DNA from: Stegostoma tigrinum
Lineage: Eukaryota
Direction: 5' to 3'
Assembly (NCBI RefSeq): GCF_030684315.1
Contig: NC_081397.1
Span: forward strand, 15,276,421 to 15,340,420
Length of the DNA stretch: 64,000 nucleotides
Shown here: piece by piece, positions 20,208 through 63,952 of the stretch
Layout: each line of letters begins with the position of its first letter
Position numbering within the stretch: the first letter of the stretch is position 1
Position numbers and translations under genes: made by a program
Notes under the pieces: model-generated
What the model was told of the DNA's origin: nothing
Seen by the model: the letters and a program-made list of their open reading frames with translations, nothing else
The model's database searches: none

Positions 20208-20462
20208 CCTGAAGAGTGGGTTGTCTTCTGAGGATATTTTGGACAGCCTGGGGAATGCTCACTTGTTCAGAAGAGTGAGGTGTGACTTGCCTCATGTTTA
20301 ATAACCTGAATGGGTTTTGACAAGGTGAATGTGGACATATTTTCTCCTCAGGCTAAGTCCAGAATGGGGGAAGATGGCTTTATCATGAGAGGAGTTCTTT
20401 ATACAAGATTAGTGTGACTTTGGAACCCTCTGCCTCAAAAGACAGTCGAGACTGGATCATTG

Positions 20463-22067: not shown

Positions 22068-22254
22068 GGGATAATGGGAACTGCAGATGCTGGAGAATGC
22101 AAGACAACAAAATGTGAGGCTGGATGAACACAGCAGGCCAAACAGCATCCCAGGAGCACAAAAGCTGACGTTTCGGGCCCGAAACGTCAGCTTTTGTGCT
22201 CCTGGGATGCTGCTTGGCCTGCTGTGTTCATCCAGCCTCACATTTTGTTGTCTT
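22068..22254. mobile_element. Near-perfect spacerless palindromic PLE-derived mini-element
   Basis: Arms 22101-22177 and 22178-22254 (77 bp each, one mismatch), 33-nt unpaired tail 22068-22100, 15-bp TSD TTAGAAGGTATTTTG at 22053-22067 and 22253-22267. Confidence 0.92.
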
Positions 22255-24651: not shown

Positions 24652-24996
<345 letters not shown>

Positions 24997-25052
24997 TCAA
25001 GCAAACCAGTAATAGAGACAATGGCTCAGCTTCTTTCAATGAAGTTGTGGGT

Positions 25053-25142
25053 GGCTCTTAGAAGAGCCTTTGGGTTTTGGATGTGTTATCTCAGCAGAAT
25101 GTGGTGTCTCACTTGGAGCTGGTGTTCTTGCTCACCGCCTTT
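25053..25142 (-). pseudogene. H2B: Histone H2B 3'-end remnant with stem-loop
   Basis: 25109-25142 encodes KAVSKNTSSK*; 3' UTR homologous to intact H2B; stem-loop GGCTCTTCTAAGAGCC at 25053-25068. Confidence 0.88.
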
Positions 25143-25235
25143 TTACTATCTTTCATCGTGAAACTTGATTCTGCAGGTTTTCTGCCGGGCCTTGTGTTCA
25201 CTGCCCTTGTGGAGAAAAGGTTTAGTTCCAGATCC

Positions 25236-25370
25236 AGTTGGGGGCGGGAGTTAGCTGGAGGCGGAGCTGGACATTTCTCTGCCTGTCACTCAGTTGCCTG
25301 CCCGGGCCGCCTCTCACTCTCTGTCAGCTCTTTCTCAGTCAGGTCGGGGCGGGCTATATAAAAAAGGAAG
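25236..25370 (+). promoter_or_regulatory. H4 promoter (GC boxes, CAGGTC element, TATA)
   Basis: GGGGCGGG twice, TCAGGTCGG, TATATAAAA at 25355; conserved upstream of the second H4. Confidence 0.75.
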
Positions 25371-25410
25371 GTGAGGCACCTCGGGTCTTATTCGGCAGCG
25401 ATTGGAGTGA

Positions 25411-25731
<321 letters not shown>

Positions 25732-25761
25732 GCAAATCGTCCCTTTTCCAGCGAACCCAAA

Positions 25762-25800
25762 GGCTCTTTTCAGAGCCACCCAAACCCTCGAAAGAGACCG
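25762..25800 (+). promoter_or_regulatory. Histone 3' stem-loop plus purine-rich downstream element
   Basis: GGCTCTTTTCAGAGCC at 25762-25777, ACCCA, then GAAAGAG ~13 nt downstream. Confidence 0.93.
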
Positions 25801-26200
25801 GAGACCCGAGGATAGCCTTGTATATTTCACACTTGCTATCGCAATTCGGCAGCTGCTCTGGCTTTATCTCGGTTCATTGTAAAATTAACAACAGCAAGTA
25901 GATTGTAAAAAGGGATTCGATGTTAATTTTGTTTCCCGGGGTCATCAAGTGTGAAAGAGGAACTTGGGAAAAAAAAATGGAAGTTGTTGATACATGATTC
26001 ATTGGAGATAATTATGCTCTTTGCAGATACAGGGAAACGAGACAGGGTATGGCTGCAACCTAAAATAAAGGGCAGATGAGGGACCACACATCAAGTTCTA
26101 AAACAATTACATTATTTTTAAAAAGCCGACTGACATTACTAATACATACCGAAAATCATTTGCAAAAAGTTGGTTCAGCTGTTTCAGCGAAGTTGTGGGT

Positions 26201-26216
26201 GGCTCTGAAAAGAGCC
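26201..26216 (-). promoter_or_regulatory. Histone 3' stem-loop (H2B)
   Basis: Reverse complement GGCTCTTTTCAGAGCC followed by ACCCA. Confidence 0.95.
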
Positions 26217-26257
26217 GTTGGGTTTTGGATGTGTTTTTCTCTGCATAATGTGGGGTC

Positions 26258-26638
26258 TCACTTGGAGCTGGTGTACTTGGTCACCGCCTTTGTACCCTCC
26301 GACACGGCGTGCTTGGCCAGCTCCCCGGGCAGCAGCAGCCGCACCGCGGTCTGGATCTCCCGGGAGCTGATGGTGCTGCGCTTGTTGTAATGGGCCAGGC
26401 GGGAAGCCTCCCCCGCGATACGCTCGAAAATATCGCTGACAAACGAGTTCATGATGCTCATGGCCTTGGAGGAGATGCCGGTGTCGGGGTGAACCTGCTT
26501 CATCACTTTGTAGATATAGATGGCGTAACTTTCTTTCCTGGACTTTCTCCTCTTCTTACCGCCTTTCGCTGGCGCCTTCTTGATGATTTTCTTGGCGCCC
26601 TTCTTGGAAGTTGCCTGCGCTTTCTTCTCATCTGCCAT
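26258..26638 (-). CDS. H2B: Histone H2B (126 aa)
   Basis: MADEKK...[26 protein letters not shown]...AVTKYTSSK; ATG downstream of TATA. Confidence 0.98.
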
Positions 26639-26687
26639 CGTAACGGTCACTTTCAGACACAGAATAAGCGAAAACGGGCTCGGAGCT

Positions 26688-26810
26688 CGCTTTTTATAGC
26701 CTTACCGCGTCAGCAATGCTAATGAGGGATGGGGGAAAGTCTTGTTCATGATTGGACAGTTAAAAAGAATGTCGGAGCATGACATCAGCCTCGCTGTGAT
26801 TGGTTAGTTT
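26688..26810 (-). promoter_or_regulatory. H2B promoter: TATA, CRE half-site, variant octamer ATTAGCAT, two CCAAT boxes
   Basis: Reverse complement CTCATTAGCATTGCTGACGCGGTAAGGCTATAAAAAG; ATTGG at 26751 and 26799. Confidence 0.8.
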
Positions 26811-29980: not shown

Positions 29981-31692
29981 GCTTTTGTCACTTCTGTCAA
30001 CTTCTGCTGTCCGAATGTGTATGTTATTAGTCCGTAACATTCAGTTTGTGCTATGTGAAAGTACAGGTGTAATTCTCAATCTATACCGATCAGTTTCTAC
30101 AAAAGAATGTATGAGTGTTGTGACTAGTCCCTACATGTCCATTCTGTTGCATCAATATGAGTGGGCAGGCATTGATCTGTACCTGCCAATTTGTGCTCCA
30201 TGAATATGAGAGTTTAGTTTCTGCAAGGCAGATGCAAGAGTGTAGTTATCTCACTCTACCTGGGGAATATTGTTCTGTGACTATTTGAGTTCAGTTGTCA
30301 CAGTGTACCTACCACATGTTACTTGGTGAATATGAGAGTTTGGTTTTAAATCTGTGACTGTCAGCTTCTCCTTGGGGAGTTTGTTTGTACAATTATCAAT
30401 CTATCCCTGAAAGATTCTGCAGCGTGAATGTGTAATTGTAGTTATCATTCTGTCCATATCAGTCTTCGCTATGTGAATAGGAGTGTATTTACTAATTTGT
30501 TTCCTTCAGTTTCCTGTCATATGAAAATGTGAGGTTAGTTATCAATCTGTTCATTTTTGTCTGCGCTCTGAATGTTTGGCAGCAGTTATCACTCTGTACC
30601 TGTCAGGTTATGCTCGATGAATACATTTTCAGTCAATCCATGACTGTTTCTGTTATAAGAATGCAAGAGTTATTTATCATTCTGTTGCTGCCAGGCTCTG
30701 CTATGTGAATGTCTGATTGCTTTTATCAGTCTTTCCCTCTCAGTTTCTCTGTGCATATGGGAGTGTGGGTATGGGTATCAATTTGTACCTGCCATTTTCT
30801 GGTATCTGAATATGAGAGTTTGCATGTCAATCTGTACCTGTCACCTTCTGGTGTGTCAATATTTGAGTGCATCTGTTCCTGGCAGTTTGTGATACACAAA
30901 GGATGGCAGTGCAGTTATCTATCAGTCACTGTCACTATTTACTGTGTGAATGCATGAATGCAGTTATCCTTACGTATCTGTTAGTTTCAGCTGTGTGGCT
31001 TTGTGAATGCAGTTACCAGTCTCCGCCCGTCAGTTTTTGCTGTGTTAAAATATGAGTTTGATAATCAATCCATGCCTGTGAGTGCGTGCTCTGTGAATGT
31101 ATGGCTGTCATTACCAGTCTCTACCTCAAAGTTTCTGCTGAGTGTGTGTTTCGATATCCATCTGTACCTGTCAGTTTGTCATGTGAATGTCTGACTGTTG
31201 TCATCAATGTGACCCTATAAGTTTCTGCAGTTCAACTATGTGACTGTAGTTATTAACCTGCACCTTCCCATTCCTGCTGTTAAAATCTGAGTGTATTTAT
31301 CTATCTATGCCTGTCAGTTCCTGCGATGGAAAGATATGGCTGTTGTCATCCGCCTTTACCTGTCAATCTCTGCTACGCGAATGAGAGTTTAATTATCAAC
31401 CTATATCTGACAATTTCTATGAGGTTTATGCGAGTGTCAGGCAATATGCTGTGAAACCATGAGTGCTGTTATCAACTTATACCTGTCAGTTTCTGTATTG
31501 TGAATGAGAGGACAGGTATGAATCTTTCTCAGTCACTGCTGTGTGAATATGTGAGTGTGTTTACCAATCTCTCCCTGTCAGATCTGCGCTGCGGACATGA
31601 GAGCATAATTGTTAGTCAGTGCCTGTCATTTTCTGTGACGTAAATGTTAGTGTCATTATTATTGTCTCCGTGTCAGTTTCTGCTGTGTGAAT

Positions 31693-32040
31693 GGGGGAAG
31701 CAATGGCCGAGTGGTGTTATCACTGGACTGTTACTCCAAAGATCCAGATAATGTTCTGGGCACCAGGTTCAAATCCCGCTATGGCAGATGGTGGAATTTG
31801 AATTCAATAAATATCTGGAATTAAGAGTCTAATGATGACCATGAATCTATTGGCAATTGTCAGAAGAAAATAAAAATCATGTCTCTTTGGGCAGGAAACT
31901 GCCATCCTTACCTGGTCCACGCTACATGTGACCCCAGACCCACAACAGTGTAGTTGACTCTTAACTGCCCTCTGGGCAATTAGGGATGGGCAAAAAATGT
32001 TGCCTTGCCAGCAACACCCTTGCCCTGTGAATGAATAAAG
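31693..32040 (+). mobile_element. SacSINE1-like tRNA-derived SINE
   Basis: A-box TGGCCGAGTGG, B-box GGTTCAAATCC, ends TGAATGAATAAAG. Confidence 0.8.
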
Positions 32041-33374
32041 AAATGTGAGCTTACTATCAATCTGTATCTGTCAGGTTTTGTTTTAAGCTCTGTGGCTATG
32101 GGTGTCATTTTCAGTCTCAAAAGTTTCTGCTATTACAATGATTTTAGTTATTGATGTGATGTTAGTTTCTGCCAGGTGACTATTTGAGCAGAATTATCAA
32201 TCTGTAAATGTCACTTTCCAATATGCAAGTATGAAAGTCTGGTTGTCAGACTGTTCTGGCAGGTATATGCAATGTGAATAAAGGGAGTGTAGTTATCGGT
32301 CTGTCTCTGTCAAGTTTCTGTCATGTCAACCTCTGAATGTAACCTGAAAGTTTCTGTAATATGCATGTGTGACTGTAGTTATCAACATGTCCCTGTCATT
32401 TTCTGCTGTGAGAAGGTGAGTGTACTTATCCTTCTAGGTCAGTCAGTTTCTGCAATGTCCATCTGTGAGTTTAGATATCAATTTATCCCTGGTGTTTTCT
32501 GCTCAGTGAATGTGCGTAGTTATCAAAGTGAACCTGTCAGGTTATGCTGTGGGAGACAGAGTGTTATGATCAGTCTGTTCATGACAGTTTTTGCTCTGTG
32601 AATATGTGAGTGTAGATATTGACCTGGACCTTTCAGTTTCTGATTTGTGAATGTATGAGTGCAGTTTTAATTTGTACCTGTTAGTTTCTGCTCTGTGAAT
32701 CTGAGAGCGCAGTCATCAACACAGTCCACACAGTCTGTGTCAAGTGAATGAATGCAATTATCTGTCTCTGTTACGTCTGTTGAGTCCATCGACCTGCACC
32801 TGTCAGTTAATGCAATTGGAATGAAAGCGTATAGTGATCACCCTGTACCTGTCAGTTTGTCAGACTTGACTGTGTGAGTGTTGTTATTCATTGACGCCTC
32901 TCAGTTTCTGTAATATGAAGGTGAAAGTGCCGTTATCAATCCATACTATTCACTTCCTGCTGGGTGAATGTGTGAGTTCATTCTCTGTTTCTGCTATGTC
33001 AATATGACAGTTTAATTATCAATCTGTACATGTCAGTTTCTGTGAGGTGAATTTGTGAGTGCAGTTTTCAACATGTAACAATGAGCTGCTCTGTGAATAC
33101 TTGAGTGTCATCATAAATCTAAACCTGTCAGTTTATGCTGTGTGAAACTGGGAGTGTTATCATCAACCTGTTCCTGTCAGTTTCTGCTAAGTGGGTACCT
33201 GAGTATGGAGATCATTCTCTTCCTGTCAGTTTCTACTCAGTGAATGTGTTTCTGAAATTATCAGTCTGTCCATGACACACTGCTTTGCTACGGTAATGTT
33301 TCCTTATCAATCTGTATTTGTCAGTTTCAGCTCTGAGCATCTGAAAGAGTAGTTATTAAGGTTTGTAATTCATA

Positions 33375-34220
33375 CAGGTCAGGTACTCAACTACAACAGC
33401 AATCATCCCAAGAACCACAAACAAAGCTGCATCAAAACGCTGTTCAAGTCAGCCACAATACACTGTCACACCCGGAGCTGTGTAGAGCCAAGGAAGAACA
33501 TTGATACAGTGTCTTTAGAAGTGATAGTTACCTGAAAAGCGTCATTGCCAATAACTACAAAACAGATGACAACAGAAAGACACAACATGTCCAGAGACAC
33601 TAGTCACCCTGCCATACATTAACGGCATACCAGAAATGACCACTAGATGACACCGCCCAGTAGGAATCATGGTAGGCCACAAACGGACAGCTACTGATGA
33701 GAACAAAGGATCCGCAAACCATGACCGACAGAACCAACGTTATTTACAAGATATGAAATGTAAAAAGGAGTTAAGTTATTTACAAGATTATGAAGAGATC
33801 GTCGTTACCATCACACAGGGTAAACCGGTAGGAAATTAGCCTTCAGGATAAACACCAACTAGCTACCAAGAGACATGACCAACTATCACTCATCTAAATG
33901 TACACGGACAAAGACGGACACCAATTTGACTGGGACAACGTAGGCATACAAGGAGAAGCCAACCAAAGACATGCACCAGAATTCCTAGAGGCTGGCACTC
34001 AAACTGGAACTCCATTAATAAACATGTCAAGCTGGACTCCATGTACGAAGAGACAAATCCAGAAGTGATGCCACCCACCCCAGCAAACCGAGGCACATAA
34101 ACAGCAAGTAGGACAGAACACCACTGCTTCACTGGAGGCGCACTGATGATGTCACGTAGGATGATGACAAAATGTCTGTAAACAAACTTACAAGCTTGGC
34201 AAGCAAGTCAGCAAAAGCAT
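33375..34220 (+). mobile_element. Penelope-like element 3' fragment (second family) ending in a decayed hammerhead
   Basis: Reads 'VLNYNSNHPKNHKQSCIKTLFK' (RT thumb-like) and 'WHSNWNSINKHVKLDSMY' (endonuclease end-like); 34141-34178 = ca-CTGATGA-t-GTCA-loop-TGAC-aAAA-tGTC-tg. Confidence 0.78.
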
Positions 34221-42356: not shown

Positions 42357-42388
42357 CTCTGATGAAGGGTTTAGGCCCGAAACGTCAG
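42357..42388 (+). ncRNA. Minimal type-I hammerhead ribozyme motif, core intact
   Basis: ct-CTGATGA-A-GGG-tttagg-CCC-GAAA-CGTC-ag: both conserved core boxes, 3-bp stem II, palindromic ACGT stem III, GUC cleavage triplet; stem I only 2 bp. Confidence 0.72.
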
Positions 42389-42486
42389 CTTTTGTGCTCC
42401 TGAGATGCTGCTTGGCCTGCTGTGTTCATCCAGCCTCACGTTTTATTATCTCGGATTCTCCAGCATCTGCAGTTCCCATTATCTCT
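42357..42486 (+). mobile_element. 130-bp PLE-derived mini-element starting at the hammerhead
   Basis: 12-bp TSD AATACGAGTGCT at 42345-42356 and 42487-42498. Confidence 0.88.
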
Positions 42487-42865
42487 AATACGAGTGCTGT
42501 GTTTATCCTTTACATGATTAACACGTTTGCATGGACTGTGACTTCTTTACGATTCAATGCCAATTCGCAACAAACAACGTGAAACAGAAGCTAAACGATG
42601 AATTACCATCAGCGTTCGGAGAATTAAATATCACAAGACTGACCCCCAACAACAGCTTCTTGCCGCTGTGTCTCCCTCAGCAGGCCCACACACAGCCCGA
42701 GAAAGGCCTCTCTCTCCCCGCCCCCAGGCCCAGGCCGCTCACTCCAAGTTCCGGGACCAGTTCCTGCTCTGCTCCGCTCCGCCTCTTACCAACAGCCCCC
42801 GGTTCTCCCTGAACTGAGCCCGAATCAATGCCGGTCTCGGAGCCCCCTCTGTGTCCCAGACTCAC

Positions 42866-47170: not shown

Positions 47171-48115
47171 TTCACTCATGGACGCTGTGATGCTCGAGCT
47201 GATTCTGTACATAAATACAGATACTGCAAGGACAGGTCAGAGTCTGGGTATCCTGCAGTGAGTGTCTGGTCTCCTGCTTCCCCAAATCCTGTCCAACATC
47301 TAATGTGATCAAGTCAGGAATGTGATAGTTTAGCCCCACTTACCCGGATGAATGCAGCTCCAAAAACACACCAGAAGCAAGGTACCATCCAGGAGAGTAA
47401 CACTTGATTGGCTGCACATCCGCAAACGTCCATTCCCTCAAACACCAATGCTCAAGCAGCAATGTGTACCTTCCAGAAGATGCACAGCTGGAATTCACCA
47501 ACGCTCCATAGACAGTGCCTTCCAAGCCCACGACCACTTCCATCTAGATACCACTGTGACACAGGGTGCCATCCAATACTTATGTGTTGCTTCAGTGAGA
47601 ATGTCCCATTTCTTTCATTTCTCTGTATGTTCTTTCAACATTGAATTAATATTTACGGGATAAAGGTCAAGGTGAATGAATACTACAGTTAACAGCTCAC
47701 TTGGATCAGATATTGTCATTGTACAGTGGAGCAAATTGAATGGGCCAAATTTTAAATCTGCTGCTTTGATTCCTTGCAGGAGTGAAACTGCAGACCTTGG
47801 ACAAAGACTCGGGGTACAGTCAGAATTCAGGGCCATCGCAGTATTTCGTCAACCAGTCACCAGATCATGCGGGGAGAGGGCCACAGCCACCCCTCTTGAA
47901 GATGCAGTTACCGCATTAATCTTTAGCTCAGATTGGAAAGCGAGAGTGATGATGCTCTGATTCTTGCAGTGCAATACATTTTGTGTTACAGTAATCCAAT
48001 GCAACGGGATCACTGTACCCTTCCCCTTATTCTATATGACCAATCGTTTGAAACTCCTAATTGGAGATGGACCCACCATTAGCCAGGCCAAGGTTTGACA
48101 CAATCTCATAATGAG

Positions 48116-48204
48116 TTTTGAGAAGATTTGTAGCTCAGGTTGAGGTTCTGGATGTGAGTTGGCTCACTGAGCTGGAAGGTTAGTTTGCAGACGTTTCGTC
48201 ACCC
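48116..48204 (-). mobile_element. PLE pLTR arm (3' half of hammerhead plus tail)
   Basis: Reverse complement begins GGGTGAC-GAAAC-GTC-TG, homologous to 34165-34215; inverted partner at 52722-52777. Confidence 0.75.
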
Positions 48205-48505
48205 TTTTTTTATTTGAAAAAATATACTTTTTTCATAAGATGTACAAAAAATAACACATTTACACACCTACCCAGTCATGCAGACCGCTTTGAGTTACCC
48301 AGGGGGTACATACACCAACTAAAGGAAAAAAAACAAACAAAGAAGAAAAAAAACAAAGCAAAGAAAATACCCCGGCAGTCGTCCACCCGCACAGTCCCCG
48401 TTGGCCCCCTGGCCAGTTGGGGAAGGCTCCAGCTGGGCCCAGTTACCAGATATGGCCCTTTTTACCATTCTGGATGAGGGGTTTCATACAGTGGTCTTTC
48501 CCCAC
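48205..48505 (-). mobile_element. Inverted ~300-bp copy of the Tx1 3' end (ORF2 stop, 3' UTR, poly(A))
   Basis: Reverse complement of 52432-52721, roughly 85% identical by eye; encodes terminal WGKTTV*. Confidence 0.92.
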
Positions 48506-51500
48506 CCCGACAACCCGGAGTCGATGGAGGAGGCGTCAGGTGATCCAGGGATGGGCGACGGTCCGGAAAGCAAGGAGGAGGGTGCGCCTGCAGGCCCAGT
48601 CACCGCAACCATCAGGCGGTAAGAGACAGCTGCAGGGGGGCTATAAGAGCTCCTCTGATGAGGGAGATTCGGAGGCGGCCCGCCCAAAGCAGAAGCTATA
48701 GATCTCAAGGGAGAAGGAAAGCAGCACCCCGCTTCCAGGTGACGGGAGGCGTCCTGAGGCTCTCTCCGACACCCAGCCACGTGCCGCTGGCGCCCTGGAG
48801 GGCCCCCTGGAATTTTCAGGTGGGAAGGAGAAAACAGCATGTCCCCAGCCTGACCCAGAGCCAGACTCTCCTGCCTCCCAACCCCCGCCGGGTGGATGCC
48901 ACCCAGAAGGCAGCACACACGGATTCCTGAGCCTGGAGATCGTCCAGCAGTTATCCCGGGCAATGGGCATGAAGGGACAGATGGATGGGCTGGACCTTGA
49001 ACTTGGGGAGGGTACTGTGTTCACTGCCCACAATGGGGGTATGAGTTGCGAGCATTAATGTGCGCAGCGTCAAGTCCACCGCAAGATGTGTGTCCATGTT
49101 GGCCAACCTGACCACCGTCAAGGCGGACCTCCTGTTTCTACAGGACTGTGGGATACTGCACCTCAGCAGGCACAGGGAAAAGGTCCAGCGCCTGGACCTG
49201 TGGGCCTTTGATCTGGTCGGGTGGTAACGACTGTCGCTCCTCGGGCCTGGCTATTCTGCTGCGGGGGCGCGACTTCGCCATCTCTCAAGTTCAGGAGGTG
49301 GTGGGGGGTCGCCACCTCGTGGTTGATGTCACCGACAGGAACGCTCTCCGGAGGCTGATCAATGTGTCCGCCCCAGCGGTACGGAGTGAGCGGTTGGCCG
49401 TCCTGCAGCGGCTTCCACCCCTGCTGGCTACGTCCAGGCCGGTCATCCTAGGCGGAGACTTCAACTGCATCATTGATGCAGATGGAAGATCCGGTGTGGG
49501 GATAGTGGGTGGAGGGAGTCAACTGGTCGTCATGTCCAGATTCCTGATGGGCACGATGAATGACGCCAATCTGCTCGACGTCTTCTGTATCCCTGCCGAC
49601 GGAGCCCAGCGGAGATGCACCTGGTCACGGCCAGACGGGTCTATCCGCTCAAGGATAGACTTCCTGTTTGTGTCACGGGTGTTCTCGCTCAGCTCCACCG
49701 ACATCGAGCCGGTGTTCTTCTCTGACCACTGCCTCCTGCTGGCCGACTGTCACTTACAGGATGACCAGCAGGCCGGCAAGGGAACGTGGAAGCTCAACAC
49801 GACTCTGTTGACCCCAGAGAACGTCAAGGAGCTTAAGAGGGAGTACTCCAGTTGGAGAACAGTGAAACCCCTCTTTGAGACTCCGGGCAACTGGTGGGAG
49901 ACAGTGAAGGAGAACATCAAGAGGTTCTTTGTCCTCAAGGGTGTTCGGAAGGCGAGAGAGAGGCAGGGAAAGCTGTCACTACTCCAGAAAAGGGTGCAGA
50001 ACTTACTCCTTCTGCAGTCGATGGCGGTCGAAGTCACGGAGGACCTCCGAGGTGAGGGGCCAGCAAGTCTCACTCTTTGCCGCGGAGGCCTCCAGGATAA
50101 TCTTCCAGTCCAGGGTCTGCTCCGTGGAGCAGGACAAGACGTGCTCGCATTTCTTCTTTCAGAAGGTGCACCAGGAAAGCTCTGTGCTCAGCCGGCTGAA
50201 GGAGGATGATGGCTCGGTGACGTCGTTCTTGGCCCGACATTTTGAGGATCAGCAGATCCTTCTATGCCGGACTGTACGACGTGAAGCCGACAGACAGCAT
50301 GGCCTCCAAGTCGTTCCTGTCATCTATCACAGAGGTCTTAGATAACAGCACGAGGGAGTGGCTGGACCGGCCGATATCCCTGGATGAGCTGACTAGAGTC
50401 CTCAAGTCCTTGGTGTGGAATAAGACTCCTGGGAGCAACGGCTTACCGGTCGTGCTGTATTCCGCTCTGTGGGACCTGGTCGGCCAGGACATGCTGGAGG
50501 TGTACGATAGTGCGCTTCGGGCAGGGGAAATGTGCAAGTCCATGACGAAGGGCATCATCACCCTCATTTACAAGAGGAAGGGGGAGAGGGAAGAAATTAA
50601 GAATTGGCGTCCCATTTCATTATTGAACATGGACTACAAAATCCTGGCCAAGGCCATAGCCAACCGGGTCAGGTCTGTCCTGGAGTCGATAATTCACCCG
50701 AACCAAACCTGTGCTGTGCCTGGCAGGAAGATCACTGAAAGCCTCACGCTGATCAGGGATATGATCGCCTACGTGGAGGACAGGAGGGTGGACACCTGCC
50801 TCGTCAGCCTGGACCAGGAGAAGGCCTTTGACAGGGTCTCTCATGCTTACGTGAGGGACATGCTCTCCAAATTGGGGTTTAGGGCAGGCATCCGCAATTG
50901 GATCCAGCTGCTCTACACCAACATCGTTAGCGCAGACTCGATCACCAGGTGGGAATTGGGCAATTTTCCCGTCAGATCTGGAGTCAGGCAGGGCTGCTCA
51001 TTCTCTCCTGCCTTGTTCATGAGCTGTATGAAGCCCTTTGCCGCAACATCAGGGAGGACGTGAATCTGAAGTGCGTGACTATCCCAGACAGCGGAGGCCT
51101 TCAGGTCAAGACCTCCCTGTACATGGACGATGTCGCCATCTTCTGCACTGATCGTTGGTTGGTGGGGTAGGCTGTTGGACATCTGCGGCCAGTTTGAACT
51201 GGCCTCGGGTGCCAAAGTCAATAGGGGTAAGAGCGTGGCCATGTTCTTCGGGAACTGGGACGACTGCCCCTTCATCCCCTTCACCGTCAGGACAGTCTAC
51301 CTGAAGGTGCTCTGTGTTTGTTTCAATGGAGCTGGAGCGTTCACTAAGACTTGGGAGGAGCATATCACCAAACTGAAGCAGAAGCTGGACAGGTGGACGC
51401 TCCGGTCCCCCTCCATCGCGGGTAAGAACCTGTTTTTCAGGTGCGAGGAGCTTTCGGTACTGTTGTATGTGGCGCAGGCCTGGCCTATTCTCTGGACCTG

Positions 51501-52721
51501 AGCCGCTGCGATCACCCGGGCCATCTTCCAGTTCATTTGGGGGTCAAGGATGGACTGGGTCCGTAGGGACACCATGTACAATAACCTGGAAAACGCGGGA
51601 AATGATGTACCGAACGCCACCCTCGCCCTGATGGCTACCTTTGTGTGCGGCTGCATCAAGCTGTGAGTAGATCCTCAGTACGCAAACACCAAGTGTCACT
51701 ACTTACTGAGGTTCTACCTGTCCCCTGGTGTTGTGAAGGATGGGCCTGGCCTTGTTGCCGCAGAACGCTCCGAGTTGTTGTACCGTTCCATAACACCTGT
51801 CCTTAGTGGAGAAATTTTTGAAAGGAAACCCCTTTGACCACAAGGCCGTCAGGCAGTGGTCAGCACATCGTATCCTCGAGACTCGTTGGGAAAAGGAGAG
51901 GGTGGATCCCGTCGTGTGGTTCCCCATGCAGACTGCCAAAGTGGTTCGGCAGAATGCCTCATCACCAGAACTTTCAAACAAGCACAAGGACATTGCTTGG
52001 CTGGCGGTGAGAGGGGCTCTGCCAGTGAGATCCTTTATGCATGCCCGGAATCTCTGCGCCACCGCACGCTGCCCTCGAGGTGGCTGCGGGGGTGCTGAGA
52101 CTGTCAATCACCTCCTTCTGGAGTGTGCCTATGCACAGGAGGTCTGGAGGGGGATGCAGTGGTATTTGTCGAGGTTCGTCCCGAGCAGCTCCGTGACATG
52201 AGACTCTGTGCTCTACGGGCTGCTTCCCGGGACGCACATTGAGACCAACATCATCTGCAACTGGAGGACTATCAATGCGGTGAAAGACGCTCTTTGGTCT
52301 GCCCGCAACTTGCTGGTCTGCCAGCTGAAAGAACTGACCCTGACTGAGTGTTGCAGACCGGCTCACTCCAAGGTCCAGGACTACGTGCTGAGGGACGCTC
52401 TAAAGCTCGGGGCAGCTGCCGCGAAGGCGCCGTGGGGAAAACCACCGTATGAAACCCCTCGCCCAGAATAGAAAAAAGGTCCCTATCTGGTAACTGGGCC
52501 CAGCTGGTACCTTCCTCAACTAGTTAGGGGGCCAACGGGGACTGTGCAGGGAGACGACTGCCGGGGTATTTTCTTTGTTTTTTTTTCTTCTTTGTTTTGT
52601 TTTTGCCTTTCGTTGGTGTATGTACTCCCTGGCTAACCCGGAGCGGCTTGCATGACTGGGTCAGGGTATAAGTTTTTTTGTACATTGTATGAATAAAGTA
52701 TGTTTTCTCAAATTAAAAAAA
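48506..52721 (+). mobile_element. Tx1-clade (L1 superfamily) non-LTR retrotransposon, 5'-truncated and decayed
   Basis: ORF1 tail; ORF2 from ATG 49033 with APE (GGDFNC, SRIDF, FSDH), RT (NWRPISLLNMDYKILAK, LDQEKAFDRV, GVRQGC, YMDD at 51120) and CCHC knuckle (CPRGGCGGAETVNHLLLEC); AATAAA at 52692 and poly(A); multiple stops and frameshifts. Confidence 0.93.
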
Positions 52722-52777
52722 GCGACGAAATGGCTGAAAAATGAACCTTCAAGCTCAGTGAGCAAACTCACATCCAG
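52722..52777 (+). mobile_element. PLE pLTR arm (3' half of hammerhead, tail-less)
   Basis: GCGAC-GAAAT-GGC-TG...GCTCAGTGAGCAAACTCACATCCAG is an inverted repeat of 48148-48204. Confidence 0.75.
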
Positions 52778-53584: not shown

Positions 53585-53705
53585 AGTAACCAATCACAGA
53601 AAAGCTAATCACATGGTCTGAGATTCTTCAAAACTGCCCAATCATGAACCAGAGTTTCCCCCATCCCTCATTAGCATTGCTGACGTGGTCAGGCTATAAA
53701 AAGCG
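53585..53705 (+). promoter_or_regulatory. H2B promoter: two CCAAT boxes, ATTAGCAT octamer variant, TGACGT, TATA
   Basis: CTCATTAGCATTGCTGACGTGGTCAGGCTATAAAAAG. Confidence 0.8.
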
Positions 53706-53754
53706 AGCTCCGCGCCCATTTTCCTTTATTGTGTGTCTGGAAGTGATCGTTTCT

Positions 53755-54135
53755 ATGGCTGATGAGAAGAAAGCGCAGCAAGCCTCCAAGAAGGGCGCTA
53801 AGAAAATCATCAAGAAGGCGCCGGGGAAAGCCGGCAAGAGAAGGAAACGGTCCAGGAAAGAAAGTTACGGCATCTACATCTACAAAGTGATGAAGCAGGT
53901 TCACCCCGACACCGGCATCTCCTCCAAGGCCATGAGTATCATGAACTCGTTCGTCAAGGATATTTTCGAGCGTATCGCGGGGGAGGCTTCCCGCCTGGCC
54001 CATTACAACAAGCGCAGCACCATCAGCTCCCGGGAGATCCAGACCGCGGTGCGGCTGCTGCTGCCCGGGGAGTTGGCCAAGCACGCCGTGTCGGAGGGTA
54101 CAAAGGCGGTGACCAAGTATACCAGCTCTAAGTGA
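53755..54135 (+). CDS. H2B: Histone H2B (126 aa, variant residues)
   Basis: [14 protein letters not shown]...[20 protein letters not shown]...TKYTSSK. Confidence 0.98.
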
Positions 54136-54175
54136 GACCCCACATTGTGCTGAGAAAACACATCCAAAACCCAAC

Positions 54176-54191
54176 GGCTCTTTTCAGAGCC
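54176..54191 (+). promoter_or_regulatory. Histone 3' stem-loop (H2B)
   Basis: GGCTCTTTTCAGAGCC followed by ACCCA. Confidence 0.95.
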
Positions 54192-56203
54192 ACCCACAAC
54201 TTCGCTGAAACAGCTGAACCAACTTTGTGCAAATGATTTTCGGTATGTATTAGTAATGTCAGTCGGCTTTTTAAAAATAATGTAATTGTTTAAGAACTTG
54301 ATGTGTGGTCCCTCATCTGCCCTTTATTTTAGGTTGCAGCCATACCCTGTCTCGTTTCCCTGTATCTGCAAAGAGCATAATTATCTCCAATGAATCATTT
54401 ATCAACAACTTCCACTTTTTGAACCACTTTTCGTTTGTAAATGATTCTCGGTGTCTATAATTAATGTCTCTAATCTTTATCTTTGTTTACACAAACGTTC
54501 TAAACATTAACGTGCGGTCCCTGTCCCTCTGTCGGTTACTTTCGGTTGCCTTCCTACCCAGTCTCTCTTCCCTCCCTGTACAGAAAGCACATTCATCGTC
54601 ACTCAGTCATTTTTTTTCAACAACTCCTGTGTTCCAGTTATTATTTACCCCTTGATCAGGAATTTCACCCCCTAGAAAGAAAACTAACTGCTCGAGTCCC
54701 ATGAACAGATCTTGCAGAATACTTGTCATTTCAGGATTTCAGCTGTCGGTGAGAGGCTTTCAAAATGAGCTGAGATAAAGCCAGAGCCAGGATTGCAGTC
54801 GCAAGTGTGAAACTGTGTGTTCAAGGAGAATATGGGAGGGCAACTTCCAACTATTGTTTCAAGTTTTAACCCGTTCACCCCGAAAAACGTTGTGTAAGTT
54901 TTTATAAATACATCAGCGTGCACTTGTAATGTGCAAGTGAATTAAATTCTAAGAAAAATTAAACTGTTCAATCCTCTTTGTAAAACTTTACCCACTATGT
55001 TGAAGGGTTTTTCCAACTTGTCCCAATAGGGTATGAAGGCTGGATTCATCCGTGGTAATGAAAAGTTTGATCGCTTATTTGAGTCCCATTAAGAGAAATG
55101 CCGTGCGATTCCTTTTTCAATTTCCAAATCTGTAAGGGAATTTATCCGATTTTTTTTCAGTTTGCAGTGTGTGGGGCTTTCTGCTGTCGGTGAGAGTTTC
55201 AAAATGAGCCGAGACCGATCGGAAAGACTGATCCAGCACAATAAGTGAGGGCTATTTTACCATGTTTTCTGAAAACGGTGTTGCTTAGGAAGTGACAGAT
55301 TGTGAAGTGAACATTTTTAACTGAAAGGAAATTAAATCGTAGGCATGAACGCAAAAATCCTGGTTAAAAACTCTTGGTCGTATTGCCCATGTTGGCGGGC
55401 TTTTCAAATCGGACAGAAAACGGTTTATGATTTGGCGCCCGTATTTTCCTACGGTTTCCACGCAGAGGAATTTTGTTTTATTTTCAAATCTCCCCGCGGG
55501 TTCTATCCGGTTTTGCAGAAAGCTGTAAATGAGGCTTTCTGTTGTCGGCGGGAAAATTTCCAAGTGAACCGAGAGGAAAGCAGAACAGCTGCCGGACTGG
55601 CATCGCAAAAGTGGAAATATTGTTGATCTTGTGCAATCGGGAGAGCGATTGTAAAATATTGTTTAAAGCAGGAATGCGCTCAACGGGAAAGAAACAGTTG
55701 TGATACTTTTATCAATATAACCGGGTGCTGATGTGTAATAAATTCAATCTGTGCAGAGAATAACTTTCGGCGGGCTTTTCTTTCCCGCTTCCACTTATTC
55801 TTCAGTTTTTGCGGGGAAAAAAGAACTTCAAGATCAAAAATAGACGGATTCAACTAGGCCGGGGAATCAGAGATTGTGTGAAGTATACAGTTGTATTCTA
55901 AAAGTAAATTATCTGGAATATGAACGCATTCTTCTTTGTAAATCTTCTACCCGTTTGAAACTATTGGATGGCTTTTCGAGTTTGAAAGAAAGCGGTTGAT
56001 GATTTGGTGCCGGGGTTTTCCGGCCTCCTCCCCGGGCCCCCTCCGGATTGGTGAGTGAAGCAGATATCTGATTGGGCATTGAAACGACATTAGGAGATAC
56101 TGAAAAATGTGACCAATCAGCAATGGCCGCACCCCCATTCCTCCCGAAGGTATAAGAGGGCGGGATGTGGCCGCATTGCAGCATTCTCTGTGAAAGTGTT
56201 TGA

Positions 56204-56608
<405 letters not shown>

Positions 56609-56637
56609 AGGGGCCGTTCTGTAACCTGACAACCAAT

Positions 56638-56653
56638 GGCTCTTTTCAGAGCC
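56638..56653 (+). promoter_or_regulatory. Histone 3' stem-loop (H2A)
   Basis: GGCTCTTTTCAGAGCC followed by ACCCA. Confidence 0.95.
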
Positions 56654-57261
56654 ACCCACAAAATCAGTGCAAAGCAGCTAGACTGTCACTGCTGGTTGAT
56701 TAATTTTCATTTTATGTGCAAACATAATTCCTTTTATTTTTTCCCTAACCGAGATGAAACTGGAGCAGCTACCGGACACGACGAATAAAGTCTGAGGTTT
56801 TACTGCAGGGACAGCGACTTGAAATAATAACTCAAAGCGGTATCCCCATCAATACGCTGACGGAACAAAGGACATGCAATAAGTCGCCGCAACAAAGAGG
56901 CCATTCGATACGAAACCGACCCGCCTCAGAGGATCGAATGAATACATTAGTGGGAGATTTGGTCGTGCAATTGAAATTTTGCCCAACGCATAAAAATTGT
57001 TTGTATGTTTTGATGGGCTTTTCGATTTGGTAACCTTTTCCCACCACCCTCCTCCGTCAAGCTCCGTTATAGCTGGCAATACGCCCAGTGAAGAAATTTG
57101 CCCACGGAGGCGTTTCAATCGGAAACTTATAAAATATGGGGTGCAATACTTCAATTGTGTTATGATTTCTGAACATTTATGAACCTGATTGCCCCGAGTT
57201 ACCTTTTGTCTTTAATGTGAATTAGTGTATCTCAGAACCAACAAATTTCTCTAACAGAAAT

Positions 57262-57410
57262 TATGGGAACTGCAGATGGTGGAGTATCCAAGCTGTGTAG
57301 CTAGATGCACACAGCACGCTCAGCAATATCCCGACACGTCAGCTTTTCTGCTTCTGAGATGTTGCTTGACCTGCTGCGTTCCTCCAGATACACACTTCTG
57401 TTGTCTAAGC
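57262..57410. mobile_element. Degenerate fold-back PLE mini-element
   Basis: GGGAACTGCAGATG tail plus diverged inverted arms. Confidence 0.65.
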
Positions 57411-57463
57411 TTCTGCAACAGCTGTGGCATTGAATCACATCGATAGCTCGCTGTGGGTTTACA

Positions 57464-57802
<339 letters not shown>

Positions 57803-57844
57803 CTAGAGCTGGGATTGGATACAGTCCCGTCCCTCAACCCCTCT

Positions 57845-57961
57845 GAGAAATGGGAACTGCAGATGCTGGAGAATCCAAGATAATAAAGTGTGAAGTTGGA
57901 TGAACACAGCAGGCCAAGCAGCATCTCAGGAGCACAAAAGCTGACGTTTCGGGCCTAGACC
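57845..57961 (-). mobile_element. PLE mini-element in the H3 promoter
   Basis: Single arm ending in GCTGACGTTTCGGGCCTAGACC (hammerhead 3' half on the minus strand). Confidence 0.85.
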
Positions 57962-58763
57962 AAACAGCTCCGGAAGGTACGGAAAAGGCAATAAAATAAT
58001 TGTTGAATTCAGATTGGTTAACCTGAAATGACAGTTTGTCAATTTGAAAAAAGCCCGCCGATTTTAGGTTAAATATTTAAAGGAAAAATAATGTCCGACG
58101 ACGATAAAATCTGTACTTTGTGGGATTTTTTAAAAACCAAACTTACAGTTAACGCGGAAAAGACGCGGGTTCATTGCCTGATCTGTCTCTAACAAGCAGG
58201 AGTAAAGCGGGGTGTTTTAACAAAGCCCAGATAAACGAATCAACCGGCCGCCTACCCCCCGTTAATGAATCTAAAAAACACCGCCGATTTAAGCATATTC
58301 AAAGCTAACAGGGTACTAAAGCTACACAATCTCAATTAATCGGCTCATTTTTATTTCACCCAGATATAAATAGTCCGAAAACTGTCACAGAGGGTAACAA
58401 GTCATTAAAATATCTGCATGCTTCCTTGAATGAAAACTGAACTGAATTCCTGGGAGGAATGAAATAGAAAAACTGCAATATGTAACATTTAGCATCAGGG
58501 CGAAATTACAAATCGAGATCTGAAATCCGGCTGCGGCACAGTACACCCTCGCTGTGTGCTGCCTTTCCTGTGCTCAGGTCTCCGTTCTCACTGCTTGATC
58601 TTTCTCTAACATTGGATACGAAATTAGTGTATTTTTGTAATGGAATGAGCCAAAATTAAAAGTCGCGAAAAATGTGAAATAACCAGCTGCAGTACACTGT
58701 CTCCTCCATATGTGCTGCCTTTTCCCATCCTCGGGTCTCCGCTCTCAATCGGAGGGTTTGGGT

Positions 58764-58779
58764 GGCTCTGAAAAGAGCC
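58764..58779 (-). promoter_or_regulatory. Histone 3' stem-loop (H4)
   Basis: Reverse complement GGCTCTTTTCAGAGCC followed by ACCCA. Confidence 0.95.
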
Positions 58780-58809
58780 TTTGGGTTCGCTGGAAAAGGG
58801 ACGAGTTGC

Positions 58810-59130
<321 letters not shown>

Positions 59131-59317
59131 TCACTGTAATCGCTGCCGAATGAGAGTGGAGCTGCCTCGCCTTCCATTTTTATACAGCCCGCCCCGACCT
59201 GACTGAGAAAGAGCTGACAGAGAGTGTGAGGCGGCCCGGGCAGGAAACTGAGTGACAGACAGTGAAATGTCCAGCTCCGCCTCCAGCTTACGCCCGCCCC
59301 CAACTGGATCTGGAACT

Positions 59318-59863
59318 AAGATATCAAAGTGTGAAGCTGGATGAACACAGCAGGCCAAGTAGCATCTCAGGAGCACAAAAGCTGACGTTTCGGGCCTAGA
59401 CCCTCCATCAGAGAGGGGGATGGGTGAGAGTTCTGGAATAAATTGGGAGAGAGGGGGAGGAGGACCGAAGATGGAGAGAAAAGAAGATAGGTGGAGAGGA
59501 GAGTAGAGGTAGGGAGGTGTGGAGGGGATAGGTCAGTCCAGGGAAGACGGACAGGTCAAGGAGGTGGGATGAGGTTAGTAGGTAGGAAATGGAGGTGCGG
59601 CTTGAGGTGGGGGGAAGGGATGGGCGAGAGGAAGAACAGGTTAGGGAGGCAGAGACAGGCTGGGCTGGTTTTGGGATGCAGTGGGGGGAGGGGATGAGCT
59701 GGGCTGGTTTTGGGATGCGGTGGGGGAAGGGAAGATTTTGAAGCTGGTGAAGTCCACATTGATACCATTGGGCTGCAGGGTTCCCACGTGGAATATGGGT
59801 TGCTGTTCCTGCAATCTTCGGGTGGTATCATTGTGGCACTGCAGGAGGCCCATGATGGACATG
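59318..59863 (-). mobile_element. Penelope-like element 3' fragment (same family as 11295-12095)
   Basis: 'RRLQEQQPIFHVGTLQPNGINVDF'; hammerhead-like CTGATGGA-GGG-tctagg-CCC-GAAA-CGTC on the minus strand at ~59382-59412. Confidence 0.85.
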
Positions 59864-62195: not shown

Positions 62196-62453
62196 TGTCG
62201 GTGGGGTTGGGGCGTCGGGGTGGGGGGTCGACACGGGGTCCGCGGAGAGACCCCCCCCACCACCCCTGCCGCGAGGACAGGCCAAGCGCCCAAACACCGC
62301 CCCCCCCCACCCCCACCCCCACCCTCCCGACCAACACCCATTCCTATGTAAACGCGTCACGCCTGCAGTTCTGGCCTCCCGCCAGCGGATGGCGGTAGCC
62401 GGGATCGGTTGGAGGTGAATCGGGTCGGGTGGGGGGGTGGGCGCAGTGCTCAC

Positions 62454-62773
62454 CGGTGACGAAGACCCTGACGGCCCGGCTCGGGGGGCGGGGGGAACCA
62501 GGCCGCCGTCGACCCGTCCTCCTCCACGCTGTGACGGCAAACGTAGCTGACCAGCCCCGTCAGGGCAGCGACGAGGCGGAAGGCGGGTGGGGGGGGCGGC
62601 GCTGGCACCGGGGAAGACCCACCTGCCCCGACCCCCAGCCCGGTACAGCCCGAACGTCCGGTTGCCCTAGCGGACCCCCCGGGCCGGGGCCAGGCAGGTG
62701 ACGGTAACGTTCTCCCTGAGGTGGTAAACCCCGGTCCTCTGGCCCAGGGTGATCCGGGTCGGGGCCGGGCCGT
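62454..62773 (-). pseudogene. Ig-like (C2-type) domain exon, phase 1-1, disrupted as assembled
   Basis: CTGCAG| acceptor, DGPAPTRITLGQRTGVYHLRENVTVTCLAP..*..FGLYR...AFRL...SYVCRH...SRAVRVFVT, G|GTGAGC donor; requires two 1-nt deletions in C runs (320 to 318 nt) and contains one TAG. Confidence 0.68.
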
Positions 62774-62879
62774 CTGCAGGGGACCCCCCCCCCGGGGGAG
62801 GGGGCGGGTGTGCGGGGTCGGCCGGTGTTGGGGGGGGCAACAGAGGTGCGTACGGTCAGCTCGGGGCGTCCATCTTGCC

Positions 62880-63580
62880 TCCCCCACCCCACACCCGCTC
62901 TCCCCGTCCCCACCCTCCCCCCTCTCCCTCCGTCAGCCCCCACCCCCACCCCCACCCTGACCCCCCGCTCACCCCGTCCCCACCCTCCCCCCTCTCCCTC
63001 CGTCAGCCCCCACCCCCAGCCCTGACCCACCCTCCCCGTCACTACCCTCCCCCCTCTCCCTCCGTCAGCCCCCACCCCCAGCCCTGACCCCCCGCTCACC
63101 CCGTCCCCACCCTCCCCCCTCTCCCTCCGTCAGCTCCCACCCCCAGCCCTGACCCACCCTCCCCATCCCTACCCTCCCCCTCTCCCTCCGTCAGCCCCCA
63201 CCCCAGCCCTGACCCACCCTCCCCGTCACTACCCTCCCCCCTCTCCCTCCATCAGCCCCCACCCCCAGCCCTGACCCACCCTCCCCATCCCTACCCTCCC
63301 CCTCTCCCTCCGTCAGCCCCCACCCCTGCCCTGACCCCCCGCTCTCCCCGTCCCTACCCTCCCCCCTCCCTCTGTCAGCCCCTGACCCCCCGCTCTCCCC
63401 GTCCCTACCCTTCCCCCTCCCTCCGTCAGCGCCCACCCCTGCCCTGACCCCCGGCTCTCCCTGTCCCTACCCTCCCCCTCTCCCTCCGTCAGCCCCTACC
63501 CCGGCCCTGACCCCCCCTCCCCGTCACTACCTTCCCCCTCTCCCCGTCACTACCTTCCCCCTCTCCCTCCGTCAGCCTCA
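62880..63580. repeat. C-rich minisatellite, ~61-bp unit, ~11 copies
   Basis: CCCTCCCCCTCTCCCTCCGTCAGCCCCCACCCCCAGCCCTGACCCACCCTCCCCGTCACTA and variants. Confidence 0.92.
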
Positions 63581-63699
63581 TCCACGCATCCCCCCCACCA
63601 CTCGGTCTCTCTGTCTCTCTCTCTCCCGCTGTCTCTCCTGGGATACTTCCCCAGACTCCCCCGACTCTCCTCTGGGGAGATATTTCTCCTCATCTCACT

Positions 63700-63952
63700 C
63701 ACAGAGACAGAGATGGAAACAGGCCCTTCGGCCCATCCCCGTCCGTGCCGGCCCCCAGATCCCCTACATTAGCCCGGCCCCCGTTTAGAGACGTTACAGG
63801 TACAGGCCCTTCGGCCCCTCCCCGTCCGTGCCGGCCCCCAGATCCCCTACATTAACCCGGCCCCCGTTTAGAGACGTTAGGGAAAAAGGCCCTTCGGCCC
63901 ACCCCGTCCGTGCCGGCCCCCAGATCCCCTACATTAACCCGGACCCCGTTTA
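63700..63952 (+). repeat. 83-bp tandem repeat (~3 copies) derived from a CR1/SINE 3' tail
   Basis: AGGCCCTTCGGCCC at 63721, 63804 and 63887. Confidence 0.88.

What the first reader, a model, noticed from the sequence alone, without database searches (positions are those of the whole stretch)
48116..52777. Two outward-facing Tx1 3' ends nested in a fold-back Penelope repeat, both poly(A) tails at hammerhead loop II
Seen in sequence: [PLE arm, minus][poly(T) plus 300-bp inverted Tx1 3' end][4.2-kb 5'-truncated Tx1 plus poly(A)][PLE arm, plus]. The left tail is followed by GGGTGAC-GAAAC-GTC and the right tail by GCGAC-GAAAT-GGC. The PLE at 34141-34178 shows this is the 3' strand of stem II plus the GAAA core of a hammerhead. 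Established: Tx1-clade elements often target specific multicopy sequences (snRNA, tRNA, 5S rRNA, microsatellites, other transposons), and classical twin priming inverts an internal segment without duplicating the 3' end. Inference, two models. (A) A Tx1 family whose endonuclease targets PLE hammerheads primed on both strands of a palindromic target. (B) A Tx1-pLTR chimeric RNA was copied by PLE machinery, which made its usual inverted tail-less duplicate; consistent with this, only the left arm has the ~30-nt tail. I know of no description of either, but could not search.
Basis: partly seen in the sequence, partly recalled or inferred. Interest (0 to 1): 0.85.

Follow-up and report, generated by a model that had tools for sequence, protein, structure and literature searches.

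The report
LINE targeting Penelope hammerhead ribozyme loop
A Tx1-type jumping gene sits at one fixed spot, the loop of a ribozyme motif in another jumping gene (a Penelope-like element), in every copy sampled from this genome; the window shows a Penelope fold-back with a Tx1 in each arm whose middle was likely deleted later, which adds a new target to a targeting habit already known for Tx1.

Summary
All 59 of 59 dispersed copies found with Tx1-only queries end in poly(A) at loop II of a Penelope (PLE) hammerhead. Full-length copies have the CTGATGA half upstream. Variants shared among copies show purifying selection on ORF1, endonuclease and RT (ORF2 pN/pS 0.24 against 0.93 for private variants), and copies re-insert in tandem. 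So this is an autonomous, site-specific Tx1 family (model A), about 3,500 copies by a rough estimate.

The window's geometry is likely secondary. Seven paralogs in the histone cluster keep the centre (two hammerhead halves, two Tx1 5' ends); the window lost about 6.4 kb at a 7-bp microhomology. The 300-bp arm is therefore neither twin priming nor a PLE-made duplicate, and the one-tail rule belongs to the host PLE (45 of 45 fold-backs).

Further: the Tx1 5' end mimics the target, and a core-breaking hammerhead variant upstream of the insertion site is in 41 of 110 occupied against 0 of 46 empty arms. The scan noted Tx1 targeting PLE hammerheads before in other genomes (unchecked notes); my literature searches found no report.

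The parts
48113..48147 (-). PLE 'tail' (~35 nt) at the left end of the host Penelope-like fold-back
   Evidence: Boundary from 17 empty paralogous sites; matches the tailed arms of other copies
48148..48204 (-). Left PLE arm: 3' strand of hammerhead stem II, GAAA core, GTC site and downstream arm
   Evidence: 95% to a natural arm
48205..48211 (-). poly(A) of the left Tx1 (7 nt)
48212..48505 (-). 3' end of the left Tx1 (last codons of ORF2 and 3' UTR); remnant of a copy that is full length in paralogs
   Evidence: 94-98% to the left, full-length Tx1 of C56 paralogs
48500..48506 (.). Deletion junction with CCCCACC microhomology; about 6.4 kb of the palindrome centre lost (two Tx1 5' parts, two hammerhead 5' halves, short PLE bodies)
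   Evidence: 6438 bp against paralog L103
48507..49035 (+). 3' part of Tx1 ORF1 (right copy), decayed
   Evidence: Starts at position 1058 of a natural full-length copy; intact ORF1 elsewhere has ZCCHC3-type RNA-binding domains and zinc knuckles
49033..52452 (+). Tx1 ORF2 (APE endonuclease, RT, zf-RVT), broken by 9 stops and 4 frame changes
   Evidence: intact 1139-aa ORF2 in copy L202
52453..52721 (+). 3' UTR with AATAAA and 7-nt poly(A) of the right Tx1
52722..52777 (+). Right PLE arm, tail-less, starting at the 3' strand of stem II (decayed)
33400..34220 (+). Older, more distant PLE 3' end with a decayed hammerhead; a relative of the target family, not part of the insertion
   Evidence: 65-80% to the target PLE; sequence

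Best explanation
This is a Tx1-type LINE family whose poly(A) ends sit at loop II of the hammerhead of one Penelope-like element, likely put there by its own endonuclease and reverse transcriptase, and the window is a Penelope fold-back with a Tx1 in each arm whose centre was likely deleted afterwards. Step 1 (pattern shown, mechanism inferred): the PLE inserts as a short head-to-head fold-back with one tailed and one tail-less arm. Step 2 (junctions shown, nick inferred): Tx1 ORF2 protein nicks at the loop II / stem II boundary and primes on the poly(A) of its RNA. Step 3 (inferred): the Tx1 RNA is a co-transcript that begins in upstream PLE sequence and carries a ~58-nt diverged copy of the arm, so the cDNA joins by homology with a variable crossover; this would favour full-length copies and carry Tx1-borne variants into the host hammerhead. 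Step 4 (shown for some loci): the site stays usable, giving tandems and doubly occupied fold-backs. Step 5 (inferred from paralogs): at this locus the 11-kb inverted pair was amplified with the histone cluster and one lineage lost about 6.4 kb of its centre.
For: 3' flank: 34 of 34 and 25 of 25 copies outside contig C56, found with queries holding no PLE sequence, are followed by the arm (25, 27, 31; two pairs are duplicates of one locus). Conversely 40 of 40 poly(A)-plus-arm junctions picked by pattern belong to this family. Of 77 3' junctions examined, 69 parsed: 37 join at the GTGAC position, 22 one G earlier, 10 with other 1-3 extra letters. Selection: ORF2 pN/pS 0.93 for private against 0.24 for variants in 7 or more copies (p 8.5e-7); endonuclease 0.29 (p 0.03), RT 0.13, ORF1 0.20-0.36; intact ORF2 in L202 and L128. 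Length: 34 of 40 copies reach the Tx1 5' end, whereas PLE upstream of the site has medians of 204-360 nt. In 9 of 20 fold-backs with one Tx1 the two PLE arms end within 60 nt of each other, as in 10 of 11 empty ones, yet only one arm has Tx1. Tandems: the upstream copy is younger in 3 of 4 (p 2e-4, 0.008, 0.025); 2 of 26 inverted pairs differ clearly in age. L221 holds a 5'-truncated Tx1 joined straight to an intact hammerhead 5' half. Locus history: 7 of 9 further C56 paralogs keep the centre, and the window's long Tx1 is 94-98% to their right copy but 88% to their left copy.
Against: No paralog keeps both ends and the centre: those with the centre lose the right Tx1 beyond position 4577, so the ancestral state is inferred from overlapping paralogs. 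No paralog with the PLE alone was seen (13 filled, 17 empty of 30), so the order PLE-then-Tx1 is not shown at this locus. Most 5'-truncated Tx1 copies lack the upstream hammerhead half (none of the 6 truncated copies among the 40); model A must put this down to later deletion or target loss. About half of the inverted pairs (14 of 26) share private variants above the 99th percentile of random pairs, including this locus (10 in 3249 sites), so the two copies are not always independent. One tandem (L171) has the older copy upstream. The endonuclease signal rests on 15 shared variants. No biochemical test.
Confidence: 0.82

Rival explanations
1. Model B as the main route: one or a few Tx1 insertions into a PLE master made a chimeric RNA, which PLE machinery copied with its usual inverted, tail-less duplicate.
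For: All 45 fold-backs have exactly one tailed arm. Doubly occupied fold-backs are common (19 of 42 against 3 of 19). Some pairs are nearly identical at diagnostic sites (L176 0 of 20, L202 2 of 68). Truncated Tx1 copies usually lack the upstream hammerhead half. One PLE variant 32 nt upstream is linked to Tx1 haplotype.
Against: A passenger would not show purifying selection on ORF1 and all ORF2 domains. PLE products are hundreds of bases long but 34 of 40 Tx1 copies are full length. Symmetric fold-backs with Tx1 in one arm only are common (9 of 20). Several pairs belong to different subfamilies (53 of 73, 34 of 39, 36 of 70 diagnostic differences). The tail rule holds without Tx1 too.
Confidence: 0.07
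2. Tx1 targets the hammerhead, but the second copy in doubly occupied fold-backs, including this one, often arose by arm-to-arm gene conversion or from a same-source RNA in one event, not by a separate later insertion. This is compatible with the best explanation and differs only on how the second arm was filled.
For: The partner is closer than random (median quantile 0.13; 10 of 26 below 0.05). Shared private variants in 14 of 26 pairs. At this locus both leaders share a variant not seen in the other leaders printed. Ages within pairs correlate (rho 0.44, p 0.025).
Against: Shared variants are scattered among diagnostic differences, which fits patchy conversion after two insertions. The copies at this locus differ at 6.7% of non-CpG sites and 12 of 71 diagnostic sites. 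The empty comparison set is younger (private load 0.0045 against 0.0082), so age structure may explain much of the excess of double occupancy.
Confidence: 0.3
3. One reading: one Tx1 event primed on both strands of a palindromic target and left a 300-bp inverted 3' end.
For: The window's geometry alone.
Against: Seven paralogs with the same outer flank hold two Tx1 5' ends and both hammerhead halves, and the window's junction has a 7-bp microhomology. A different deletion is seen in two other paralogs (L100, L101).
Confidence: 0.02
4. No endonuclease targeting: PLE reverse transcription stalls or the RNA is cut at loop II, and synthesis jumps onto the Tx1 poly(A).
For: The junction lies at a structural boundary of the RNA (fold). 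Tx1 and host PLE have similar private loads (0.0073 and 0.0082). Fold-backs with Tx1 are less often symmetric (15 of 32) than empty ones (10 of 11).
Against: The endonuclease domain is under selection. Tandems and two inverted pairs of unequal age show insertion into existing genomic sites.
Confidence: 0.06

Closest known systems
Tx1L of Xenopus laevis (inserts into the piggyBac-type element Tx1D)
   Same: Tx1-type LINE with an APE endonuclease that targets one site inside another transposable element (PMC4494074, PMC1950540, PMC6719617; passages). Nearest ORF2 relatives here are amphibian proteins at 44-49% identity.
   Different: The target is a retroelement's ribozyme motif, not a DNA transposon. 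Tx1L itself was not among the named hits, so no direct comparison was made.
Crocodilian Tx1-Mar, Tx1-8_Crp, Tx1-4_AMi, Tx1-9_AMi
   Same: Tx1 families preferring Mariner, LTR or Harbinger elements; tandem stacking and the hitchhiking question are treated for their SINEU partner (PMC4494074, passages and section 15).
   Different: None targets a PLE ('Penelope' occurs 0 times in that text). Specificity here is 59 of 59.
R2 in 28S rDNA
   Same: Site-specific, co-transcribed with its target; target homology at the RNA ends helps integration (PMC12203849, PMC3414825; passages).
   Different: R2 has a different endonuclease class (recalled) and needs its own HDV-like ribozyme to cut; here the neighbouring host hammerhead is mostly broken upstream of Tx1 (8 of 110 intact cores).
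Penelope/Poseidon-type PLE (the host)
   Same: RT with GIY-YIG relatives, minimal hammerhead, inverted 5'-truncated partner and a 30-40-nt tail at one end (PMC8557442, PMC11167929, PMC4209133; passages).
   Different: None of the passages read mentions a LINE nested in the hammerhead.

Membership tests
Tx1 clade non-LTR retrotransposon | ORF2 with N-terminal APE endonuclease, RT and C-terminal zinc-binding domain | tested here: met
   PF03372, PF00078, PF13966 on intact copy P0001 and on window fragments
Tx1 clade non-LTR retrotransposon | ORF1 with RNA-binding domains and CCHC knuckles; poly(A) end | tested here: met
   PF23057, PF23058, PF00098 on a 487-aa ORF1; 3-10 nt poly(A), mostly 7-8
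Tx1 clade non-LTR retrotransposon | RT phylogeny inside the Tx1 clade against named Repbase families | tested here: inconclusive
   Sister to ten proteins, the named ones amphibian (support 100), and near a zebrafish protein named 'transposon TX1 uncharacterized 149 kDa protein'. FastTree only, top 47 of 120 hits, no named Tx1 or L1 references, midpoint root.
Target-specific Tx1 family | More than 20% of copies flanked by one sequence type (criterion in PMC4494074) | tested here: met
   59 of 59
Target-specific Tx1 family | Independent insertion rather than hitchhiking (truncated copies flanked by target on both sides) | tested here: inconclusive
   One clear case (L221); most truncated copies lack the upstream half. 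Independence rests on selection, tandems, unequal ages and one-arm occupancy.
Target-specific Tx1 family | Endonuclease nicks the target site | not testable with these tools
   Needs an in vitro nicking assay
Penelope-like element (host) | RT with GIY-YIG endonuclease | tested here: inconclusive
   RVT_1 on one fragment; Pfam gave no GIY-YIG hit on two C-terminal fragments; 2 of 22 homologs carry PF01541 and one more is named GIY-YIG protein
Penelope-like element (host) | Minimal hammerhead, inverted partner, tail at one end | tested here: met
   7198 exact 34-nt hammerhead matches, control 0; fold; one tail in 45 of 45 fold-backs
L1-type twin priming product | Single insertion with an internal inversion made at insertion | tested here: not met
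   Two 3' ends, and paralogs with two 5' ends and an intact centre

The most novel reading that the evidence does not exclude
The Tx1 family not only targets the Penelope hammerhead but disables it: it is co-transcribed from the PLE, carries upstream PLE sequence and a target-mimicking leader with ribozyme-breaking changes, overwrites the host hammerhead by homologous joining, and is selected to keep its RNA uncut so that it retains long target homology. That would be a reverse-R2 strategy and natural evidence that minimal PLE hammerheads cut in vivo.
Probability: 0.3. Interest if true: 0.75.

Novelty: new variant of a known kind. Interest (0 to 1): 0.5.

Why it matters
It adds a retroelement ribozyme to the list of Tx1 targets and gives thousands of natural insertions at one base, with intact young ORF2 copies, as a handle on how APE endonucleases change specificity. 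The very high full-length fraction and the target-like 5' leader suggest homology-guided 5' joining in an APE-type LINE. If the enrichment of broken hammerheads upstream of Tx1 reflects selection, it offers an indirect test of whether the weak minimal PLE hammerheads cut in vivo, which PMC4209133 and PMC11167929 leave open. The odd geometry in the window itself is an ordinary later deletion.

Tried and rejected
Rfam did not detect the hammerhead. The tool for DNA around homologous proteins was closed, so the flanks of the amphibian relatives are unknown. No RNA holder listed for the element. Contigs of four runs from four other coded organisms were laid on copy L202: two cover most of the element deeply, but no listed piece bridges the poly(A)-arm junction, so linkage in other species was neither shown nor excluded. 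A paralog with the PLE alone was sought and not found among 30 examined. The core variant 18 nt upstream showed no significant link to any Tx1 haplotype column after correction. The IQ-TREE run did not finish; FastTree was used. An early reading that the chimera was spread by PLE machinery was dropped. The excess of double occupancy is not claimed as established, because the empty set was chosen by exact match and is younger. Literature searches that found no report of a Tx1 or LINE targeting a PLE hammerhead: (listings only, except papers named as read). Repbase and subscription papers (such as Kojima and Fujiwara 2004, seen only as a citation) could not be searched, and no supplements were read; target tables there may bear on novelty.
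Full report
OBSERVATION. The window lies at G000:C56:15276421-15340420 in a 3.2-Gb genome, inside a histone gene cluster (histone stem-loops). It is probably a cartilaginous fish: a shark protein carries an 85%-identical piece of the PLE. The structure is as described: an inverted repeat 48148-48505 / 52432-52777 with 304 matches, 39 mismatches and 18 gap columns, a decayed Tx1 with endonuclease, RT and zf-RVT remains, and both poly(A) tails joined to the 3' strand of hammerhead stem II. Five other places on C56 hold the same structure at about 99%.

THE FAMILY IS SITE-SPECIFIC. Two searches with the Tx1 3' end alone gave 2420 and 2329 candidates, of which 40 each were scored. Outside C56, 34 of 34 and 25 of 25 are followed by the PLE arm; two pairs are duplicates of one locus. 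A pattern search for poly(A) plus arm gave 362 exact matches, control 0. I fetched 40 of the first listed, and all 40 were this family. Of 77 3' junctions outside that pattern set, 69 parsed: 37 join at the GTGAC position, 22 one G earlier and 10 with 1-3 other letters. The empty target folds with stem II closed by the 6-nt loop TAGAAT, so the junction is the loop II / stem II boundary. Exact counts are 7198 intact hammerheads and 1627 Tx1-type 5' leaders. With exact-match rates of 11 of 48 and 39 of 84 this gives roughly 31,000 empty arms and 3,500 Tx1 copies; these are crude estimates.

ANATOMY OF A FULL COPY. PLE body, then the CTGATGA half and loop II, then a ~58-nt leader resembling the arm but with fixed differences, then 5' UTR, ORF1 (487 aa), ORF2 (1139 aa), 3' UTR, poly(A), and the true arm with or without tail. 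Leader differences are nearly fixed far from the site (positions +36 to +46) and less frequent close to it, as a variable crossover between cDNA and target would give (inference). R2 offers a precedent for target homology aiding 5' integration (PMC12203849, passages).

AUTONOMY. Private ORF2 variants are neutral (pN/pS 0.93) and variants in 7 or more copies are mostly silent (0.24, p 8.5e-7). By domain: endonuclease 0.29 (p 0.03, 15 variants), RT 0.13, C-terminus 0.23, ORF1 0.20 and 0.36; the linker was not significant. C56 paralogs other than L103 were left out of these counts. 34 of 40 copies reach the Tx1 5' end, internal deletions allowed, while PLE sequence upstream of the site has medians of 360 nt (occupied) and 204-234 nt (empty). 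A PLE enzyme that stops after a few hundred bases would not cross 5.3 kb (inference). In 9 of 20 fold-backs with one Tx1 the two PLE arms end symmetrically, like 10 of 11 empty ones, which fits insertion into a finished fold-back. In four direct tandems the upstream copy is younger in three and older in one; 2 of 26 inverted pairs differ in age at p < 0.01. L221 has a 354-nt truncated Tx1 joined directly to an intact upstream half. Against a simple picture, none of the 6 truncated copies among the 40 keeps the upstream half.

THIS LOCUS. Nine further C56 paralogs share the left outer flank. Seven keep a full-length left Tx1, both leaders, both hammerhead halves, about 70 and 160 nt of PLE body head to head, and a right Tx1 from its 5' end to position 4577; two carry another deletion. 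The window's long Tx1 matches their right copy at 94-98% and their left copy at 88%, and its short arm matches their left copy at 94-98%. The window's junction has a CCCCACC microhomology and lacks 6438 bp against L103. No paralog keeps everything, so the ancestral state is an inference. Among 30 flank paralogs examined (of 40 listed), 13 are filled and 17 empty, and none has the PLE alone.

TAIL RULE AND DOUBLE OCCUPANCY. All 45 fold-backs scored have exactly one tailed arm: 8 with no Tx1, 25 with one, 12 with two. This is the PLE pattern (PMC8557442, PMC11167929; passages) and says nothing about how Tx1 arrived. The partner arm carries Tx1 in 13 of 25 and 6 of 17 occupied loci against 3 of 19 empty arms (tallied by eye; Fisher p 0.04). 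The empty set is younger, so age may explain much of this. Still, 14 of 26 pairs share private variants above the 99th percentile of random pairs, scattered among diagnostic differences. Patchy arm-to-arm conversion or a common source is likely, also at this locus; this is unresolved.

THE HOST RIBOZYME. A change of the core CTGATGA to CTGTTGA, 18 nt upstream of the insertion site, is in 41 of 110 occupied and 0 of 46 empty partner arms; intact cores are 8 of 110 against 15 of 46 (p 1e-4). In a pattern listing, all 4 such variants among 100 lay at Tx1-type leaders (matched by position). Tx1 therefore appears to carry upstream target sequence to new sites (inference). That A6 is catalytic is recalled hammerhead knowledge. 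Whether the breakage is selected or is drift after release from PLE constraint is untested; the variant is not tied to one Tx1 haplotype.

COMPARISON AND NOVELTY. It works like Tx1L and the crocodilian Tx1 families that target other elements (PMC4494074, passages and section 15; PMC1950540 and PMC6719617, passages). It meets the domain tests for Tx1; placement among named families is inconclusive. Eight searches found no report of a PLE hammerhead target, but Repbase, subscription papers and supplements were not seen. A bioRxiv preprint on retrozymes (10.64898/2026.07.22.740005, passages) does not mention Tx1. Five unchecked notes of this scan report the same targeting in other genomes; none was found for fold-backs or for this genome.

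VERDICT. Real; a new target for a known habit. The window's striking geometry is likely a later deletion. Interest 0.5.

Noticed in passing
window 22101-22254, also 11299-11415, 20024-20212, 42359-42491, 57849-57965, 59290-59406: A second, shorter repeat family with a hammerhead-like motif (recognised by eye); at 22101-22254 it forms a 77+77-nt near-perfect palindrome with no spacer.
   Followed up: no
window 24627-26806 and 53587-59319: Two inverted groups of histone genes with histone stem-loops, 88-98% alike; the unit is repeated many times on contig C56.
   Followed up: partly
window 30000-33400: Diverged 49-bp tandem repeat array.
   Followed up: no
L140-L169 and other loci: Empty PLE fold-backs have nearly symmetric junctions (10 of 11 within 60 nt) and nearly identical arms (6 of 92 diagnostic differences), suggesting that both arms come from one cDNA that folds back.
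   Followed up: partly
L213, L220, L236, L039, L046: Arms that begin with Tx1-leader variants and end with PLE-type sequence, with no Tx1 after them; they may be left by recombination between the leader and the 3' arm that removed a Tx1 copy.
   Followed up: partly
Tx1 copies in L031-L209: Copies are mosaics of several subfamily haplotypes across 94 variant columns, pointing to frequent recombination among sources.
   Followed up: partly
L105 with L275, right Tx1 near position 1600: A 5.2-kb element with an (AGAAC)n end and a 1002-aa open frame is inserted in the Tx1; probably another LINE.
   Followed up: no
window 62280-63900: C-rich low-complexity repeat with a ~61-bp period.
   Followed up: no
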